DNA of 19,783 bases from a virus (lineage: Duplodnaviria > Heunggongvirae > Uroviricota > Caudoviricetes). This document shows, piece after piece, positions 10,101 through 13,563 of this stretch. The translations under genes were made by a program, and so were the position numbers. Under the pieces are notes generated by a model. It saw only the letters and a program-made list of their open reading frames with translations, was not told the origin of the DNA and ran no database searches. Each line of letters begins with the position of its first letter. The stretch's first letter is position 1. The DNA lies in the IMG/VR virus record IMGVR_UViG_2778261691_000003, positions 1 through 19,783 of that record; one strand, written 5' to 3'.

Positions 10101-10178
10101 CTGTGGATTGATCCAGTAATGACCTCAGAACTCCATCTGGATTTGTTCAGAACGCTCGGTTGCCGCCGGGCGTTTTTT
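10101..10178 (+). ncRNA. oop: oop-like antisense RNA overlapping the cII 3' end (coordinates approximate)
   Basis: Plus-strand terminator GCUCGG-UUGCCG-CCGGGC + UUUUUU (10154-10178) sits in DNA that reads like the lambda cII 3' end / oop terminator as recalled; the 5' end is inferred from the lambda oop length, not seen. Confidence 0.5.
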
Positions 10179-10421
10179 ATTGGTGAGTCCATCAAGCGCA
10201 TACTTAAAAGCCCTGCTAATCGGACTGATGTCTGATGCCATTCCGAAAGCACACAAGACCGAAGCAATAAATCTCCAGTCCGTTCTGCTTATCTTCGATT
10301 CATGACAGCCAATCATCTTTGCCAGACCGCGCTGGGTAAGCGTTGACAGGTTGATGAGTAAATCTGTTTCTGCGCGATCAATTTCTCGCTGTGTTGGCTT
10401 GCTGTAACTTGCTTGTGTCAT
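10125..10421 (-). CDS. cII: CII transcriptional activator (chimeric: non-lambda N-terminal part, lambda-type C-terminus)
   Basis: 98 aa; the C-terminus TNKKRPAATERSEQIQMEF is the lambda CII C-terminus, while the first ~78 residues differ from lambda. Confidence 0.8.
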   Translation of the reverse strand: MTQASYSKPTQREIDRAETDLLINLSTLTQRGLAKMIGCHESKISRTDWRFIASVLCAFGMASDISPISRAFKYALDGLTNKKRPAATERSEQIQMEF

Positions 10422-10505
10422 TTGTTAATTTTCCAATAGTGAATAGTTAGTTGAAAGGTATGCGTGGAAACGCATATGGCCTTAGTTGGTCAGATATCTT
10501 GGGGC

Positions 10506-10551
10506 TCGCTTTGTCAGCGACGTAGGACGAATGTCCATTGTGAAAAGAGCG
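10506..10551 (-). promoter_or_regulatory. nutR-like site (boxA CGCTCTTTT, boxB hairpin with UGACAAA loop)
   Basis: Minus strand reads CGCTCTTTTCACAATGGACATTCGTCCTACG-TCGCTGACAAAGCGA between cro and cII; the boxB loop matches the P22/21-type boxB recalled from memory, not lambda boxB. Confidence 0.55.
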
Positions 10552-10558
10552 GTGTTAC

Positions 10559-10768
<210 letters not shown>

Positions 10769-10783
10769 TTAGTACATGCAACC

Positions 10784-10853
10784 ATTATCACCGCTAGAGG
10801 TAAAATAGTCAACACGCACGGTGTTAGATATTTATCCCTTGCGGTGATAGATT
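10784..10853. promoter_or_regulatory. right operator region: OR1-OR2-OR3 with divergent PR (towards cro) and PRM (towards cI)
   Basis: OR1 10786-10802 (TATCACCGCTAGAGGTA), OR2 10810-10826 (CAACACGCACGGTGTTA), OR3 10832-10848 (TATCCCTTGCGGTGATA). PR -35 TTGACT and -10 GATAAT on the minus strand; PRM -35 TAGATA and -10 TAGATT on the plus strand. Confidence 0.85.
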
Positions 10854-10856
10854 TAA

Positions 10857-11573
<717 letters not shown>

Positions 11574-11760
11574 AGGCGAAGCAGCAATTGGTTTGATTTG
11601 GTATTGCTATTTTTTCTCTAAAGTTGTTGAGCATTTTTCCGGTAGATAAAAATAGACGCAAATTTACATGATTTTTTGTGCTGTATTGCTTGCTGAAAGC
11701 TAGGTTTTGCGTAAACTTCAATTACTCAAATTAGAGTAAACAACATATAGGACACCCCAC

Positions 11761-11982
11761 ATGAAAAAATCTGCAAAGCACTTTTTCAGCGCTATGGGCT
11801 CTATCCTTGACCTTTGCCCAGCAGGTAGCTACAGCGAGTATCATTCAAATGCTACAGACATCGACCTTATCAACTCAGATTGGGTTAAGGTAGGTAGTTA
11901 CGTTAGAGACGCTGTAACTGATAATGAGCAGAAAAAAATCCCAAAGAAAGCTTCAAACCGCCGCACCGAGAAATCTTGTTAA
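11761..11982 (+). CDS. hypothetical protein, ORF-A of the rex-slot cassette (likely N-terminal part of a frameshifted gene)
   Basis: 73 aa ORF with AGGA 8 nt upstream of the ATG; ends 58 nt after the start of the overlapping ORF-B; an A7 tract at 11932-11938 lies in the overlap. Confidence 0.45.
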   Translation: MKKSAKHFFSAMGSILDLCPAGSYSEYHSNATDIDLINSDWVKVGSYVRDAVTDNEQKKIPKKASNRRTEKSC

Positions 11983-12457
11983 CCAACCAACTCCGTTAGG
12001 GCGAGTTCAAGACGGTAAAACCGAACTGCTTATAAATGAGGTCGCAAAGAACCCTCAAGTTCTTGAGCGCCTCATGGACAGGCCAGATCTAGCTGGCATC
12101 ATGATGCAGGTGACTCACACTAGATCAGGGCCACTCCCAGACGCTGACGAATTAGCTAAGTACGAAAGAATATCTCCAGGATTCGCTCGCGAAATAATGG
12201 ACATGGCTAAGGCTGAGCAAAAACACAGACACGAGTATTACAAAGCAGGACAGAGGGGAGCAATTTGGCGAGATCGACTCGGACAGATCTTTGCGATGAC
12301 TTCTGTCTTTGTTTTCGCAGGAATTGCTTACAAGATGATTCAGCACGAGGCTTATGGCTGGGCTACCGGGCTTCTTGGTGCTGAGTTAGTTGCTTTAACT
12401 AGCGTGTTTATAATTGGAAGAAGAGACAAACCGAATCCAAAGCAAACTAAAAAATGA
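11924..12457 (+). CDS. membrane protein with two C-terminal TM helices (DUF2335-like motif), ORF-B of the rex-slot cassette
   Basis: 177 aa in the +1 frame relative to ORF-A, with no obvious RBS of its own; motif PLPDADELAKYERISPGFAREIMDMAKAEQKHRH followed by hydrophobic helices LGQIFAMTSVFVFAGIAY and GWATGLLGAELVALTSVFIIG. Confidence 0.55.
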   Translation: MSRKKSQRKLQTAAPRNLVNQPTPLGRVQDGKTELLINEVAKNPQVLERLMDRPDLAGIMMQVTHTRSGPLPDADELAKYERISPGFAREIMDMAKAEQKHRHEYYKAGQRGAIWRDRLGQIFAMTSVFVFAGIAYKMIQHEAYGWATGLLGAELVALTSVFIIGRRDKPNPKQTKK

Positions 12458-12460
12458 GAC

Positions 12461-12489
12461 AACCCGGCCTCAGCGCCGGGTTTTCTTTG
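12461..12489 (+). terminator. rho-independent terminator ending the cI / rex-slot transcription unit
   Basis: Stem AACCCGGC / GCCGGGTT (8 bp, 6-nt loop) followed by UUUUCUUUG. Confidence 0.7.
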
Positions 12490-12640
12490 CCGCACGTTCG
12501 CCCCAAAACACATAACCAATTGTATTTATTTGAAAATTAATAGATACAACTCACTAAACATCGCAATTCAGATCTCTCGATCACCTCCCAAGCCACACAC
12601 CCCTGCAAAAAAAATAAATCTATATAAAAAACATACAGAT

Positions 12641-12703
12641 AACCATCTGCGGTGATAAATTATCTCTGGCGGTGTTGACATAAATACCACTGGCGGTGAT
12701 ACT
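12641..12703 (+). promoter_or_regulatory. left operator region OL3-OL2-OL1 with pL promoter
   Basis: OL3 12641-12657 (AACCATCTGCGGTGATA), OL2 12661-12677 (TATCTCTGGCGGTGTTG), OL1 12685-12701 (TACCACTGGCGGTGATA); -35 TTGACA 12675-12680, -10 GATACT 12698-12703; these match lambda OL/pL, and the sequence diverges from lambda downstream. Confidence 0.85.
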
Positions 12704-12771
12704 AAACACATCAGCAGGACGCACTACTCACCAGGGCGGTGAATATACAACGATTCGAATATGAATCTACG

Positions 12772-12786
12772 GCGCTGACAAAGCGC
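12772..12786 (+). promoter_or_regulatory. nutL boxB-like hairpin (GCGC-UGACAAA-GCGC)
   Basis: GCGCTGACAAAGCGC lies ~70 nt downstream of pL; same loop as the nutR boxB here and as the P22-type boxB recalled from memory; no clear boxA found. Confidence 0.5.
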
Positions 12787-12951
12787 AATAACCAAAGTGA
12801 ACTTTGGGGTGTGGTGAAGGGTTCATGGACGGGAATATGTCGCACGTAAAGCGGCGAGGCCTGCGGGACTATTGCCGAATTGAAGTAGGCCGAAACAGGT
12901 CGAAATGGGTCTCCCACCTACCACACCACCAAAGTTCATCAGGAGGTCTAT

Positions 12952-13335
12952 ATGACACGCAGAACTCAGTTCAAAGGCAATTCACGTTCTCGTCGTCGTG
13001 AGCGTTTAAAGGCAAAGGCATTAGCTAACGGCGTACTGGCCCGCGAAGAAGCAATAAGTTCAGAAGTATTACACCGCCCTACTCTAAGCAGAGCGCAGAT
13101 TCAGGCTAAAGGTACTCACGAAACGCCTGAGCGCATAGAAGACGCTAAGCCAATTAAGTTCATGGCACAGGACGTGATCTGGCAACAGAAAGAATACAGA
13201 CGCAATCTGGAGAGAGCGGCCATTGTGTACGCGAATGAGTTTGGACATAAGCAACCAGAAACTGGTGTATGTCTTCCAAACGTAGCCATTTACTCGGCAG
13301 GATACCGGAAATCAAAACAACTGACAGCGAGGTAA
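12952..13335 (+). CDS. N: antiterminator N (P22 gp24 / phage 21 type)
   Basis: 127 aa; arginine-rich N-terminus TRRTQFKGNSRSRRRERLKAKALANG and C-terminus AIYSAGYRKSKQLTAR resemble P22 gene 24 as recalled; preceded by CAGGAGG. Confidence 0.8.
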   Translation: MTRRTQFKGNSRSRRRERLKAKALANGVLAREEAISSEVLHRPTLSRAQIQAKGTHETPERIEDAKPIKFMAQDVIWQQKEYRRNLERAAIVYANEFGHKQPETGVCLPNVAIYSAGYRKSKQLTAR

Positions 13336-13338
13336 GTG

Positions 13339-13563
13339 ATGAATCAGACATACATTCCATCATGCTTGAGAAATCTGCCAAAGCAGAAAGCAAAGCCACG
13401 CAAGCAAGCCATAAAGGACGCTAAGTCAGAGGTTATTGATCAAGCAATACAATTGCTCAGGGAGGAGTTAAGAAGTGGCAAGCTCGAAGGAATGATGATG
13501 CCCTATCAGCGCGGATATCTTTCGGCGATTAGTAAGCTGGAAGTATTGAAGAGTGAATTATGA
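13339..13563 (+). CDS. hypothetical basic, coiled-coil protein (74 aa)
   Basis: ATG 13339 with GAGG 6 nt upstream, immediately after the N stop; no recognisable family. Confidence 0.5.
   Translation: MNQTYIPSCLRNLPKQKAKPRKQAIKDAKSEVIDQAIQLLREELRSGKLEGMMMPYQRGYLSAISKLEVLKSEL

What the first reader, a model, noticed from the sequence alone, without database searches (positions are those of the whole stretch)
11574..12489. The rexAB slot between cI and OL/pL holds a different cassette encoding a two-TM membrane protein
cI (10860-11573) and OL1-3/pL (12641-12703) are lambda-type, so the segment between them is the position where lambda carries rexA-rexB, its abortive-infection exclusion system. 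Here that ~0.9 kb contains no RexA- or RexB-like ORF. Instead there is a 187-bp AT-rich spacer, then ORF-A (73 aa) and ORF-B (177 aa) on the cI strand, closed by a strong terminator (12461-12489). ORF-B has the motif PLPDADELAKYERISPGFAREIMDMAKAEQKHRH followed by two hydrophobic helices, which I associate (from memory, unverified) with the uncharacterised DUF2335 membrane-protein family. A lysogen-expressed membrane protein in this slot is a plausible candidate for an exclusion or abortive-infection determinant. That is inference, not shown by the sequence.
Basis: partly seen in the sequence, partly recalled or inferred. Interest (0 to 1): 0.75.

Follow-up and report, generated by a model that had tools for sequence, protein, structure and literature searches.

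The report
Two-gene membrane cassette replacing lambda rexAB
In this lambda-immunity prophage the rexA-rexB exclusion genes are replaced by a mobile two-gene cassette, a small soluble protein plus a DUF2335 membrane protein, that recurs in temperate phages of three bacterial phyla and is a good but untested candidate for a new toxin-antitoxin-like phage-exclusion module.

Summary
The window carries lambda cI (235/237 identical), lambda Timm, OL1-3 and pL. The 889 bp between the cI stop codon and Timm replace rexA-rexB. ORF-B (177 aa) is a genuine Pfam DUF2335 protein (E 1.4e-17) with a C-terminal two-helix membrane hairpin, predicted N-in/C-in.

New here: ORF-A (73 aa, not annotated in RefSeq) is a real gene under purifying selection. 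It is the conserved upstream partner of DUF2335 genes. An ORF-A-like ORF abuts or overlaps the DUF2335 start in every clade sampled:
- 16/16 close viral loci;
- 20/22 distant viral loci;
- phages of Klebsiella, Staphylococcus and Arthrobacter.

The two proteins are fused in three Xenorhabdus species and in one metagenomic protein. The ORF-A-like domain is also found fused to a Panacea antitoxin domain.

The cassette behaves as a classic moron. It has a conserved sigma-70-like promoter and a terminator, and it hops between accessory slots: after at least 7 repressor types, in tail regions, between Q and lysis genes, and next to integrases.

It is not a frameshifted pseudogene and has no homology to RexA or RexB.

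My best reading (about 0.45) is a toxin-antitoxin-like or abortive-infection pair: membrane effector plus cytoplasmic regulator, functionally analogous to RexAB. Function is inferred, not shown.

The parts
10860..11573 (+). cI repressor (lambda immunity); left flank of the slot
   Evidence: 235/237 aa identical to lambda cI; Pfam HTH_3 + Peptidase_S24. Identity to lambda DNA ends at the last codon/stop.
11574..11760 (+). AT-rich leader of the cassette (GC 0.348). No + strand terminator was detected here, so pRM/pRE transcripts should read through.
   Evidence: Composition. No + strand terminator between cI and ORF-A in the scan. >=99% conserved in 21 E. coli genomes.
11672..11677 (+). T6 run, T7 in some E. 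coli copies. This is the only indel in the 916/917-nt copies and it lies outside coding sequence.
   Evidence: Alignment with NZ_CP063487.
11690..11717 (+). Conserved sigma-70-like promoter of the cassette: -35 TTGCTG (11690-11695), 16-nt spacer, -10 TAAACT (11712-11717)
   Evidence: Conserved as CTTGCTG...GCGTAAACT in loci whose proteins are only 48-90% identical, while flanking bases diverge. Tail-slot copies carry TATAAT instead. It falls below the scan threshold (3/6 in the -35), so promoter function is inferred.
11749..11752 (+). Shine-Dalgarno AGGA of ORF-A, 8 nt before the ATG
   Evidence: AGGA/GAGGA at the same distance in all 10 diverged loci.
11761..11982 (+). ORF-A, 73 aa: small soluble two-helix protein with motifs GSILDxxPxxxY and DWxxVG; partner of DUF2335; not annotated in RefSeq
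   Evidence: 23 homologues of 73-74 aa down to 58% identity. phrog_26284, E 1.5e-39. No Pfam hit. Codon-position variability 0.34/0.21/0.54. No hydrophobic segment. AF2 helices 3-17 and 31-59.
11924..11982 (+). 59-nt overlap of ORF-A (tail) and ORF-B (start, +1 frame). It contains an A7 run at 11932-11938.
   Evidence: The ORF-B ATG lies exactly 163 nt after the ORF-A ATG in 9 of the 10 loci; in L003 the script picked a TTG 9 nt upstream, and the annotated ATG gives 163. The overlap is weakly constrained in both frames. The A-run is not conserved beyond close relatives.
11924..12457 (+). ORF-B, 177 aa: DUF2335-family inner-membrane protein (WP_000087627.1)
   Evidence: Pfam PF10097, E 1.4e-17. 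phrog_3996 'membrane protein, moron' category, E 9e-43. Codon-position variability 0.29/0.19/0.60. The exact sequence occurs on 905 contigs.
12137..12286 (+). DUF2335 core (residues 72-121: PLPDADELAKYERISPGFAREIMDMAKAEQKHRH...), predicted cytoplasmic
   Evidence: Pfam match coordinates. Invariant P70, P72, Y80 and I91 across 44 homologues; G69, L71, P85 and R102 conserved in >=90%.
12284..12418 (+). Membrane hairpin: TM1 residues 121-139, 7-residue loop QHEAYGW, TM2 residues 147-165. The K/R-rich flanks predict N-in/C-in topology.
   Evidence: Kyte-Doolittle 19-residue maxima of 1.52 and 1.78; 6 K/R in the 20 residues before TM1, 6 K/R in the 12-residue tail, none in the loop. AF2 pLDDT ~90.
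12461..12489 (+). Timm, lambda's immunity-region terminator; right flank of the slot
   Evidence: Stem 12461-12482 plus T-run; dG -18.4. Identical to lambda. Annotated as Timm in EF120460/EF120459.
12641..12703 (+). OL3-OL1 and pL, identical to lambda
   Evidence: Alignment with lambda; pL hexamers TTGACA/GATACT at 12675-12703.
12952..13335 (+). N antiterminator (127 aa, non-lambda allele)
   Evidence: Pfam N_peptide, E 3e-15. Identity to lambda ends just after pL.

Best explanation
Window 11572-12460 is a self-contained, horizontally mobile two-gene moron that has replaced rexA-rexB exactly between the cI stop codon and Timm.

Expression. It should be transcribed in the lysogen in two ways: by read-through from pRM, since no terminator follows cI, and from its own conserved sigma-70-like promoter (TTGCTG-16-TAAACT). 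ORF-A has a strong Shine-Dalgarno. ORF-B starts 163 nt later in the +1 frame without a well-spaced Shine-Dalgarno, so ORF-A is probably made in excess (inferred).

Products. ORF-B is a DUF2335 inner-membrane protein. About 115 residues, including the conserved SGPLP...Y...PG...EQxHR core, face the cytoplasm, followed by a tight N-in/C-in helical hairpin. ORF-A is a small soluble two-helix protein from an unnamed family that is the obligate upstream partner of DUF2335 genes across phyla.

Proposed mechanism (inferred). The pair is a toxin-antitoxin-like or abortive-infection module. ORF-B is a membrane-acting effector, causing depolarisation or permeabilisation after oligomerisation. ORF-A binds its cytoplasmic domain and holds it inactive, or acts as the sensor, until a superinfecting phage perturbs the complex. 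It would be a non-homologous functional analogue of the RexA/RexB pair it replaces.
For: Shown:
- Precise replacement at the lambda junctions.
- Both genes are under purifying selection, with invariant geometry in 10 loci at 48-100% identity.
- An ORF-A homologue is present in 16/16 IMG/VR loci of the ORF-B clade.
- In 20 of 22 further distant viral loci, the best ORF-A-HMM hit among 2084 six-frame ORFs is the ORF abutting the DUF2335 start (E 1e-26 to 0.09).
- The same holds in Klebsiella phages RAH1 and BUCT711, Staphylococcus phage E72, Arthrobacter phage Gusanita, an S. saprophyticus island, a Rahnella prophage and a common E. coli prophage paralogue.
- Natural fusions of the two proteins occur in three Xenorhabdus species (146-aa ORF hitting both HMMs) and in the metagenomic protein P0136.
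- The ORF-A-like domain is fused to a Panacea/SocA antitoxin domain in P0120 (Pfam E 1.3e-21). It may also be fused to a HicB-like domain in L036, but that match is weak.
- Panacea antitoxins are experimentally known to neutralise small membrane-depolarising toxins with a charged N-terminus and C-terminal TM helices (Kurata et al. 2022, PMC8832971).
- Mobility between accessory slots: downstream of at least 7 different HTH+S24 repressors, after tail genes (L024-26), between Q and the lysis genes, between lysin and integrase, and at the accessory end of a PICI-like island.
- The promoter is conserved and a terminator is present.
- The slot is an established home of Abi/TA cargo: rexAB, bstA and HicAB.
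- N-in/C-in topology leaves almost nothing in the periplasm, which favours a cytoplasm-triggered effector.
Against: - There are no functional data for any DUF2335 protein in the searchable literature.
- There is no hit to PADLOC defence models, and no structural or sequence relative of known function.
- AlphaFold2 models are only moderate (pLDDT 64 and 66), and no complex could be modelled.
- Expression in the lysogen, membrane insertion, toxicity and ORF-A/ORF-B binding are all inferred.
- Stable natural fusions are not typical of labile-antitoxin type II systems, although fused toxin-antitoxin proteins are known.
- The Panacea fusion is a single protein whose genomic neighbour could not be retrieved.
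- A Dickeya zeae study lists a DUF2335 gene among virulence-related loci (PMC8809351), which hints at a role outside phage defence.
Confidence: 0.45

Rival explanations
1. Superinfection exclusion at the inner membrane (Sie-type, not abortive). ORF-B, with ORF-A as a cofactor, sits in the inner membrane and blocks genome entry of incoming phages by interfering with inner-membrane entry components. This would resemble HK97 gp15, P22 SieA or T4 Imm. The cell survives.
For: - It is a lysogen-type accessory membrane protein found in moron slots, including tail-region slots like that of HK97 gp15 (L024-26).
- PHROGs places it in the 'moron/auxiliary' category as a membrane protein.
- A single prophage membrane protein is known to exclude DNA injection in mycobacteriophage Charlie (cited in PMC6426606).
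Against: - The predicted periplasmic exposure is only a 7-residue loop. The conserved part is cytoplasmic.
- An obligate soluble partner, and fusions of that partner's domain to antitoxin domains, are not features of known Sie proteins.
- There is no homology to any known Sie family.
Confidence: 0.17
2. A plain addiction or stabilisation toxin-antitoxin pair that favours retention of the prophage or island and has no phage-sensing role.
For: - The architecture is two genes, with a small upstream gene overlapping a membrane protein.
- The partner's domain is associated with a Panacea antitoxin domain.
- HicAB occupies the same slot in other lambda-immunity phages.
- The module persists in a cryptic cI/cro remnant in Xenorhabdus.
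Against: - Its distribution is overwhelmingly on temperate phages and satellite-like islands, in hot spots that typically hold anti-phage cargo.
- Covalently fused forms cannot work by differential stability of two proteins.
Confidence: 0.1
3. A lysogenic-conversion or host-physiology factor unrelated to phages, such as envelope or stress adaptation or virulence modulation. Alternatively, a function in the phage's own cycle.
For: - A DUF2335 gene is listed among the Dickeya zeae MS2 genes newly reported as encoding pathogenicity-related factors, tested by maceration assays on potato slices (PMC8809351).
- Moron slots also carry virulence and fitness genes.
- There is no match to any defence model.
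Against: - A host-specific physiological role is hard to reconcile with the same two-gene unit occurring in phages of Enterobacterales, Staphylococcus and Arthrobacter.
- The Dickeya gene was not shown to be an orthologue, and no mechanism is given.
Confidence: 0.13
4. A decayed or frameshifted single gene (ORF-A and ORF-B once formed one reading frame), or ORF-A is a chance ORF.
For: - The ORFs overlap, with an A7 run in the overlap.
- RefSeq annotates only ORF-B.
- Fused versions exist elsewhere.
Against: - The ORF-A length (67-74 aa), its Shine-Dalgarno, the 163-nt offset and the +1 frame are conserved down to 48% identity.
- Three-periodic substitution patterns appear in each gene's own frame.
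- The A-run is absent in L019, L020, L024, L027 and L003.
- The only indel in E. coli copies is non-coding.
- ORF-A matches a PHROG family at E 1.5e-39.
Confidence: 0.03

Closest known systems
Lambda RexA/RexB (abortive-infection exclusion system)
   Same: It occupies the identical genomic slot between cI and Timm, on the cI strand, and is presumably co-transcribed with cI. It is two genes: one soluble cytoplasmic protein and one inner-membrane protein. It is lysogen-side cargo.
   Different: There is no sequence or profile similarity (hhalign prob 1.7% and 0.2%). ORF-A is 73 aa against 279 aa for RexA. ORF-B has 2 TM helices and a large cytoplasmic domain, against 4 TM helices in the 144-aa RexB. 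The genes overlap, and the cassette has its own promoter upstream of both genes. Function is untested.
Pfam PF10097 / DUF2335 'predicted membrane protein' (PHROG 3996)
   Same: ORF-B is a bona fide member: 63.8 bits against a cutoff of 25, the same core motif and a C-terminal TM hairpin.
   Different: The family has no known function. Its obligate small upstream partner (PHROGs 26284, 10654 and 27385, all 'unknown') is not part of any family description I could find, and is often left unannotated (RefSeq E. coli; GenBank records of phages RAH1 and BUCT711).
PanA-PanT (Panacea) toxin-antitoxin pairs with membrane-depolarising toxins (Kurata et al. 2022, PMC8832971)
   Same: Both are bicistronic, with an upstream neutraliser and a downstream small protein that has a charged N-terminal part and C-terminal TM helices. 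One relative of ORF-A (P0120) carries a Panacea domain fused to the ORF-A-like domain.
   Different: The window's ORF-A has no Panacea domain. DUF2335 is not mentioned in that paper or in its held supplements. Toxicity of ORF-B is untested.
Gordonia phage CarolAnn gp43/gp44 and mycobacteriophage Sbash gp30/gp31 (PMC6426606)
   Same: These are prophage-expressed two-gene defences made of a membrane protein and a cytoplasmic protein. They sit next to, and are co-expressed with, the repressor (CarolAnn) or use their own promoter (Sbash). They are interpreted as RexAB-like.
   Different: Those systems are distant RexA homologues (DUF4747) with 4-TM partners. There is no relation to ORF-A or ORF-B.
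Other cargo of the cI-N hotspot: BstA (BTP1), and HicAB plus others in lambda-immunity phages (Degnan et al. 2007; Owen et al. 2021)
   Same: The same hotspot, with the same flanking joints at the cI 3' end and Timm.
   Different: The proteins are unrelated. None of the phage records in the INPHARED collection carries this cassette at the DNA level.

Membership tests
Pfam DUF2335 (PF10097) | Profile-HMM score above the curated gathering threshold | tested here: met
   63.8 bits against a cutoff of 25, E 1.4e-17, full-length match 1-50/50 of the model.
Pfam DUF2335 (PF10097) | Predicted membrane protein: hydrophobic helices C-terminal to the conserved core | tested here: met
   Two hydrophobic segments, 121-139 and 147-165. 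AF2 helices with pLDDT ~90. Conserved across 44 homologues.
Lambda RexAB | Homology of the soluble component to RexA | tested here: not met
   hhalign prob 0.2%; no Pfam hit for ORF-A.
Lambda RexAB | Homology of the membrane component to RexB (4 TM helices) | tested here: not met
   hhalign prob 1.7%; only 2 TM helices.
Lambda RexAB | Location between cI and Timm, co-oriented with cI | tested here: met
   Junctions at the cI stop codon and at Timm.
Lambda RexAB | Abortive exclusion of superinfecting phage with loss of membrane potential | not testable with these tools
   Needs plaque and membrane-potential assays.
Moron (Hendrix-type accessory transcription unit) | Insertion between genes that are adjacent or conserved in related phages | tested here: met
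   Same flanks as lambda, with different cargo. The same cassette lies behind at least 7 repressor types and in tail, Q-lysis and integrase slots.
Moron (Hendrix-type accessory transcription unit) | Own promoter and terminator | tested here: inconclusive
   The terminator is clear. The promoter-like TTGCTG-16-TAAACT is conserved across diverged loci, but it is below the consensus-scan threshold and has not been tested experimentally.
Moron (Hendrix-type accessory transcription unit) | Expression from the repressed prophage | not testable with these tools
   Inferred from pRM read-through (no terminator after cI) and from the promoter.
Type II toxin-antitoxin / TA-like Abi module | Conserved bicistronic pair with a small upstream partner and tightly coupled genes | tested here: met
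Type II toxin-antitoxin / TA-like Abi module | Physical or functional link between the two products | tested here: inconclusive
   Rosetta-stone fusions in Xenorhabdus and in P0136 argue for it. No binding data or complex model exists.
Type II toxin-antitoxin / TA-like Abi module | Toxicity of one component, neutralised by the other | not testable with these tools
   Needs expression experiments.
Type II toxin-antitoxin / TA-like Abi module | Match to a known toxin, antitoxin or defence model | tested here: not met
   No PADLOC hit. No TA Pfam/NCBIfam hit for the window's proteins. The only indirect link is the Panacea-fused relative P0120.
PanA (Panacea) antitoxins | Presence of the SocA_Panacea/DUF4065 domain | tested here: not met
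   ORF-A has no Pfam hit. The domain is present only in the distant relative P0120.

The most novel reading that the evidence does not exclude
The small ORF-A-like protein plus DUF2335 is a previously unrecognised, cross-phylum family of phage-, satellite- and island-borne two-component membrane abortive-infection or toxin-antitoxin systems. It would be a non-homologous replacement for RexAB. The ORF-A-like domain would be a new regulator or antitoxin domain that can also be covalently fused to its effector, or recruited by Panacea-type antitoxins.
Probability: 0.35. Interest if true: 0.72.

Novelty: new variant of a known kind. Interest (0 to 1): 0.6.

Why it matters
DUF2335 is a widespread family of unknown function. 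The exact ORF-B sequence alone occurs on 905 public contigs, and a paralogue is indexed in more than 2,000 blocks of the assembly collection (its cluster stands for 1,000 or more contigs). The family reaches Firmicutes and Actinobacteria phages.

The conserved, mostly unannotated partner, the natural fusions and the links to antitoxin domains turn a 'hypothetical membrane protein' into a defined two-gene unit with a testable mechanism. That unit sits in the very slot of the oldest known abortive-infection system.

If it excludes phages, it adds a compact (0.75 kb) defence family, and a natural experiment: the same immunity region carrying rexAB or this cassette. That allows comparison of how prophages protect their hosts.

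It also flags a systematic annotation gap, because the overlapping small first gene is missed by PGAP.

Tried and rejected
1. **Frameshifted or split gene, or programmed frameshift.** Rejected. Geometry and both frames are conserved, the A7 run is not conserved, and the only indel is in the spacer.

2. **Hidden RexA/RexB homology.** Rejected by hhalign.

3. **Known defence system.** PADLOC gave no hit. NCBIfam gave nothing meaningful.

4. **Structural homology.** Foldseek against the PDB with the ORF-B model gave a best E of 5.6. Profile searches of PDB sequences with ORF-A-like and DUF2335 alignments found nothing. The AF2 models have only moderate confidence.

5. **'DUF2335 phospholipase' in T6SS papers**. 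This does not fit a 177-aa helical membrane protein. It is almost certainly a slip for DUF2235/Tle1 (my knowledge), so I set it aside.

6. **Conserved 5'-UTR hairpin or operator after the -10 (11724-11737).** RNAalifold gives -0.48 kcal/mol with no covariation. Not supported.

7. **Rfam on 10400-13400.** No match.

8. **Retrieving the genomic neighbour of the Panacea-fused relative P0120.** It is not in IMG/VR. The genome scan found only a stand-alone cyanobacterial relative with no detectable DUF2335 next to it.

9. **tblastn of ORF-A against the phage collection.** No match, although PHROGs holds the family.

10. **Searches that failed or returned nothing.**
   - The literature search for WP_000087627 found nothing.
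   - Degnan et al. 2007 is not held.
   - Two related-loci runs failed because the alignments were too diverse.

11. **Holin reading.** A 2-TM N-in/C-in topology resembles class II holins. I dismissed this because there is no holin family hit, the cytoplasmic domain is large and conserved, and the gene is not in lysis cassettes.
Full report
**1. What is in the window**

The region is a lambda immunity region drawn in the opposite orientation to the standard lambda map.
- cro is at 10559-10759 (- strand), and cII at 10125-10421 (- strand).
- cI is at 10860-11573 (+ strand) and is 235/237 aa identical to lambda cI.
- Aligned with lambda, identity runs to the last codon of cI. It is then lost for 889 bp, where lambda has about 1.4 kb of rexA-rexB.
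- Identity resumes at 12461 with the Timm hairpin and continues through OL3-OL1 and pL. It ends just after the pL -10.
- The GenBank records of Degnan et al. (EF120460, EF120459) annotate the same hairpin as Timm. They show other cargo in the same interval: hicAB plus a hypothetical gene in mEp234, and a 301-aa gene in CL707.
The spacer is AT-rich (GC 0.348 against 0.467) and the terminator is strong (dG -18.4).

**2. ORF-B**

- The recollection of DUF2335 is right: PF10097, E 1.4e-17, well above the gathering threshold, matching residues 72-121.
- PHROGs files it under phrog_3996, 'membrane protein', in the moron/auxiliary category.
- There is no hit in PADLOC, NCBIfam or PDB sequences, and no significant Foldseek match.
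- Hydropathy gives two hydrophobic segments, 121-139 and 147-165. They are separated by a 7-residue loop without K/R and flanked by K/R-rich stretches. The positive-inside rule therefore predicts N-in/C-in, with about 115 residues in the cytoplasm.
- AlphaFold2 with a 44-sequence alignment gives an all-helical model. Residues 1-32 are disordered, and a long helix (87-140) runs from the DUF2335 core straight into TM1. TM2 is 144-167, with pLDDT ~90 in the hairpin and 64 overall.

**3. ORF-A is a real gene, and the unit is two genes**

- RefSeq annotates only ORF-B.
- ORF-A has 23 homologues of 73-74 aa, down to 58% identity, on the same contigs as ORF-B homologues. It matches phrog_26284 at E 1.5e-39.
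- In ten loci whose proteins are 48-100% identical, the layout is invariant:
  - AGGA/GAGGA lies 6-9 nt before the ORF-A ATG.
  - The ORF-B ATG lies exactly 163 nt later, in the +1 frame.
  - The overlap is 41-62 nt.
- Substitution patterns are three-periodic in each gene's own frame: ORF-A 0.34/0.21/0.54 and ORF-B 0.29/0.19/0.60. In the overlap the pattern is flat.
- The single-base length difference among E. coli copies is a T6/T7 run in the spacer. The A7 run in the overlap is not conserved.
- The locus is therefore neither a pseudogene nor a frameshifted single gene.

**4. The pair is conserved far beyond Enterobacterales**

I built an HMM from the ORF-A family and searched six-frame ORFs of loci that carry distant DUF2335 genes (26-34% identical to ORF-B).

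- After its own family, the HMM's best hits were exactly the ORFs abutting or overlapping each DUF2335 start. These were:
  - Klebsiella phage RAH1 (an unannotated 65-aa ORF, E 2.8e-10);
  - Klebsiella phage BUCT711;
  - Staphylococcus phage E72 gp31;
  - Arthrobacter phage Gusanita gp36;
  - a very common E. coli prophage paralogue.
- One iteration raised these to E 1e-11 to 2e-3 and added three more contexts: a metagenomic island, a Rahnella prophage and an S. saprophyticus island.
- All 16 IMG/VR loci of the ORF-B clade have the partner.
- In a second IMG/VR scan with the DUF2335 core, 20 of 22 distant loci with upstream DNA have it as the top hit in the locus.
- Shared motifs are GS(I/V)(L/M)D(I/L)xPxxxY and (S/G)DWxxVGxx(L/I)xxA.
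- The partner has no Pfam family. It is split over three 'unknown' PHROGs: 26284, 10654 and 27385.
- A profile search of 1.84 billion representatives finds 78 clusters, nearly all of 60-88 aa.
- AlphaFold2 predicts two helices and a disordered tail.

**5. Links between the two proteins, and to antitoxins**

- In Xenorhabdus indica, X. lircayensis and X. budapestensis, a single 146-aa ORF starts with the first ORF-A motif and continues directly into the DUF2335 core and hairpin. It hits both HMMs, and in X. indica (L079) it lies next to a cI/cro remnant.
- The metagenomic protein P0136 joins a complete ORF-A-like domain to the start of a DUF2335 domain.
- P0120 joins a SocA/Panacea antitoxin domain (E 1.3e-21) to a C-terminal ORF-A-like domain.
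- The partner in locus L036 has an N-terminal extension with a weak (non-significant, E 0.16) PHD_like antitoxin match that looks HicB-like to me. It sits beside an SMC/AAA ATPase gene.
- Panacea antitoxins are experimentally shown to neutralise small membrane-depolarising toxins with a charged N-terminus and C-terminal TM helices (PMC8832971).
- DUF2335 itself is not mentioned there or in the held supplements.

**6. The cassette behaves as a moron**

- In E. coli it is rare: 21 of 5426 complete genomes, all at 99% identity or more and all intact.
- It lies behind different repressors. Only strain PD7 has the window's arrangement of lambda cI, cassette and N.
- Across loci it follows at least 7 sequence types of HTH+S24 repressor. 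It is also found:
  - after tail genes (L024-26);
  - between Q and the lysis genes (Rahnella);
  - between lysin and integrase (Staphylococcus phage E72);
  - beside integrases (Gusanita);
  - between the tailspike and other late genes in Uetakevirus-type prophages;
  - at the accessory end of a PICI-like island.
- The flanks of 13 further viral loci are ordinary phage genes.
- The leader carries a conserved TTGCTG-16-TAAACT (11690-11717) in repressor-slot copies, and a TATAAT in tail-slot copies.
- No terminator separates it from cI. Both pRM read-through and its own promoter should therefore express it in the lysogen. This is inferred.

**7. Mechanism**

Shown:
- It is a conserved, mobile, two-gene unit.
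- One product is predicted soluble (no hydrophobic segment). The other is a predicted N-in/C-in membrane hairpin with a conserved cytoplasmic domain.
- Natural fusions of the two exist.
- The partner domain is associated with an antitoxin domain.
- The cassette resides in hotspots that hold Abi/TA cargo. The cI-N hotspot is described by Owen et al. 2021, citing Degnan et al. 2007. Two-gene analogues made of a membrane protein and a cytoplasmic protein are known in CarolAnn and Sbash.

Inferred:
- ORF-B is a membrane-acting effector.
- ORF-A binds and restrains it, or senses for it.
- Infection by another phage releases it.
- The lack of a well-spaced Shine-Dalgarno for ORF-B suggests an excess of ORF-A.

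I give this reading 0.45. The rivals are:
- Sie-type entry block, 0.17;
- pure addiction module, 0.10;
- a non-phage conversion function, 0.13 (a Dickeya DUF2335 gene is listed among virulence-related loci);
- artefact or pseudogene, 0.03.

**8. Novelty**

- The slot, the moron concept and two-component membrane Abi/TA systems are all known.
- DUF2335 is a known but uncharacterised family.
- I could not find the following described anywhere in the searchable literature: the obligate partner family, its cross-phylum linkage to DUF2335, the fusions, and its occurrence as a rexAB replacement.
- I therefore rate it a new variant of a known kind, with interest 0.6. It is a well-defined, cheaply testable candidate, not a demonstrated system.

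Noticed in passing
window 11574-12460 slot; loci L028, L029, L030, L032, L033: Other lambda-immunity E. coli prophages and phages carry different small cassettes between cI and Timm. These are: overlapping 88-aa + 216-aa hypotheticals (the commonest), DUF6932 + a 310-aa protein, YoaK + HicA/HicB + a hypothetical, and a single 301-aa gene (CL707). Most are two-gene units of unknown function and are worth screening together.
   Followed up: partly
L001 6188-6409, L002, L031; L004 3784-3981; L007 3727-4062: The small partner gene is missing from the annotations I checked: the three RefSeq/PGAP E. coli genomes viewed, and the GenBank records of Klebsiella phages RAH1 and BUCT711. This looks like a systematic miss of an overlapping small ORF.
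   Followed up: yes
L079 3001-3441 (also L080, L081): In three Xenorhabdus species the first ORF-A motif and DUF2335 are one 146-aa protein. In L079, the locus examined, it sits immediately downstream of a lambda-like cro, opposite a cI-like repressor. Non-phage genes follow, so this looks like a cryptic remnant that kept only the immunity switch and this gene.
   Followed up: partly
P0120 (238 aa); L078 2983-3219: A Panacea (SocA) antitoxin domain is fused to an ORF-A-like C-terminal domain. A near-identical stand-alone ORF-A-like gene occurs in a cyanobacterial MAG, with no detectable DUF2335 downstream. The ORF-A-like domain may therefore also pair with other partners.
   Followed up: partly
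L036 661-4378: A DUF2335 gene is preceded by a 139-aa partner whose N-terminal extension gives a weak PHD_like antitoxin match (E 0.16; it looks HicB-like to me), followed by the ORF-A-like domain. It lies directly after a 693-aa SMC_N/AAA_15/AAA_23 ATPase and a 175-aa ORF, which may be a defence-island context.
   Followed up: no
L076 (contig JAJXBQ010000280.1, labelled Segatella copri MAG): A 3.5-kb contig binned as Segatella copri carries the cassette at 100% amino-acid identity to the E. coli version. It is probably a mis-binned enterobacterial prophage fragment.
   Followed up: no
window 11672-11677: There is a T6/T7 length polymorphism 13 nt upstream of the putative -35 among otherwise >=99% identical E. 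coli copies. It could modulate promoter context.
   Followed up: no
window 11724-11737 and equivalents in L019, L020, L027: Each lineage has a short inverted repeat right after the putative -10 (ACTCAAATTAGAGT here; TCAAC...GTTGA in others). RNAalifold does not support a conserved hairpin. An operator is possible but untested.
   Followed up: partly
window 12704-13335: Identity to lambda ends just after the pL -10. The N gene (127 aa) is a non-lambda allele, so a further mosaic joint lies between pL and nutL/N. The flanking modules are mosaic: O + DnaB-type helicase on the left, and RecT, Gp157 and Ead/Ea22 on the right.
   Followed up: partly
literature: Two T6SS papers list a 'DUF2335 phospholipase' toxin domain, which does not fit this family and is probably a slip for DUF2235. 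A Dickeya zeae study lists a DUF2335 gene among loci affecting maceration. That is the only phenotype-linked mention I found.
   Followed up: partly
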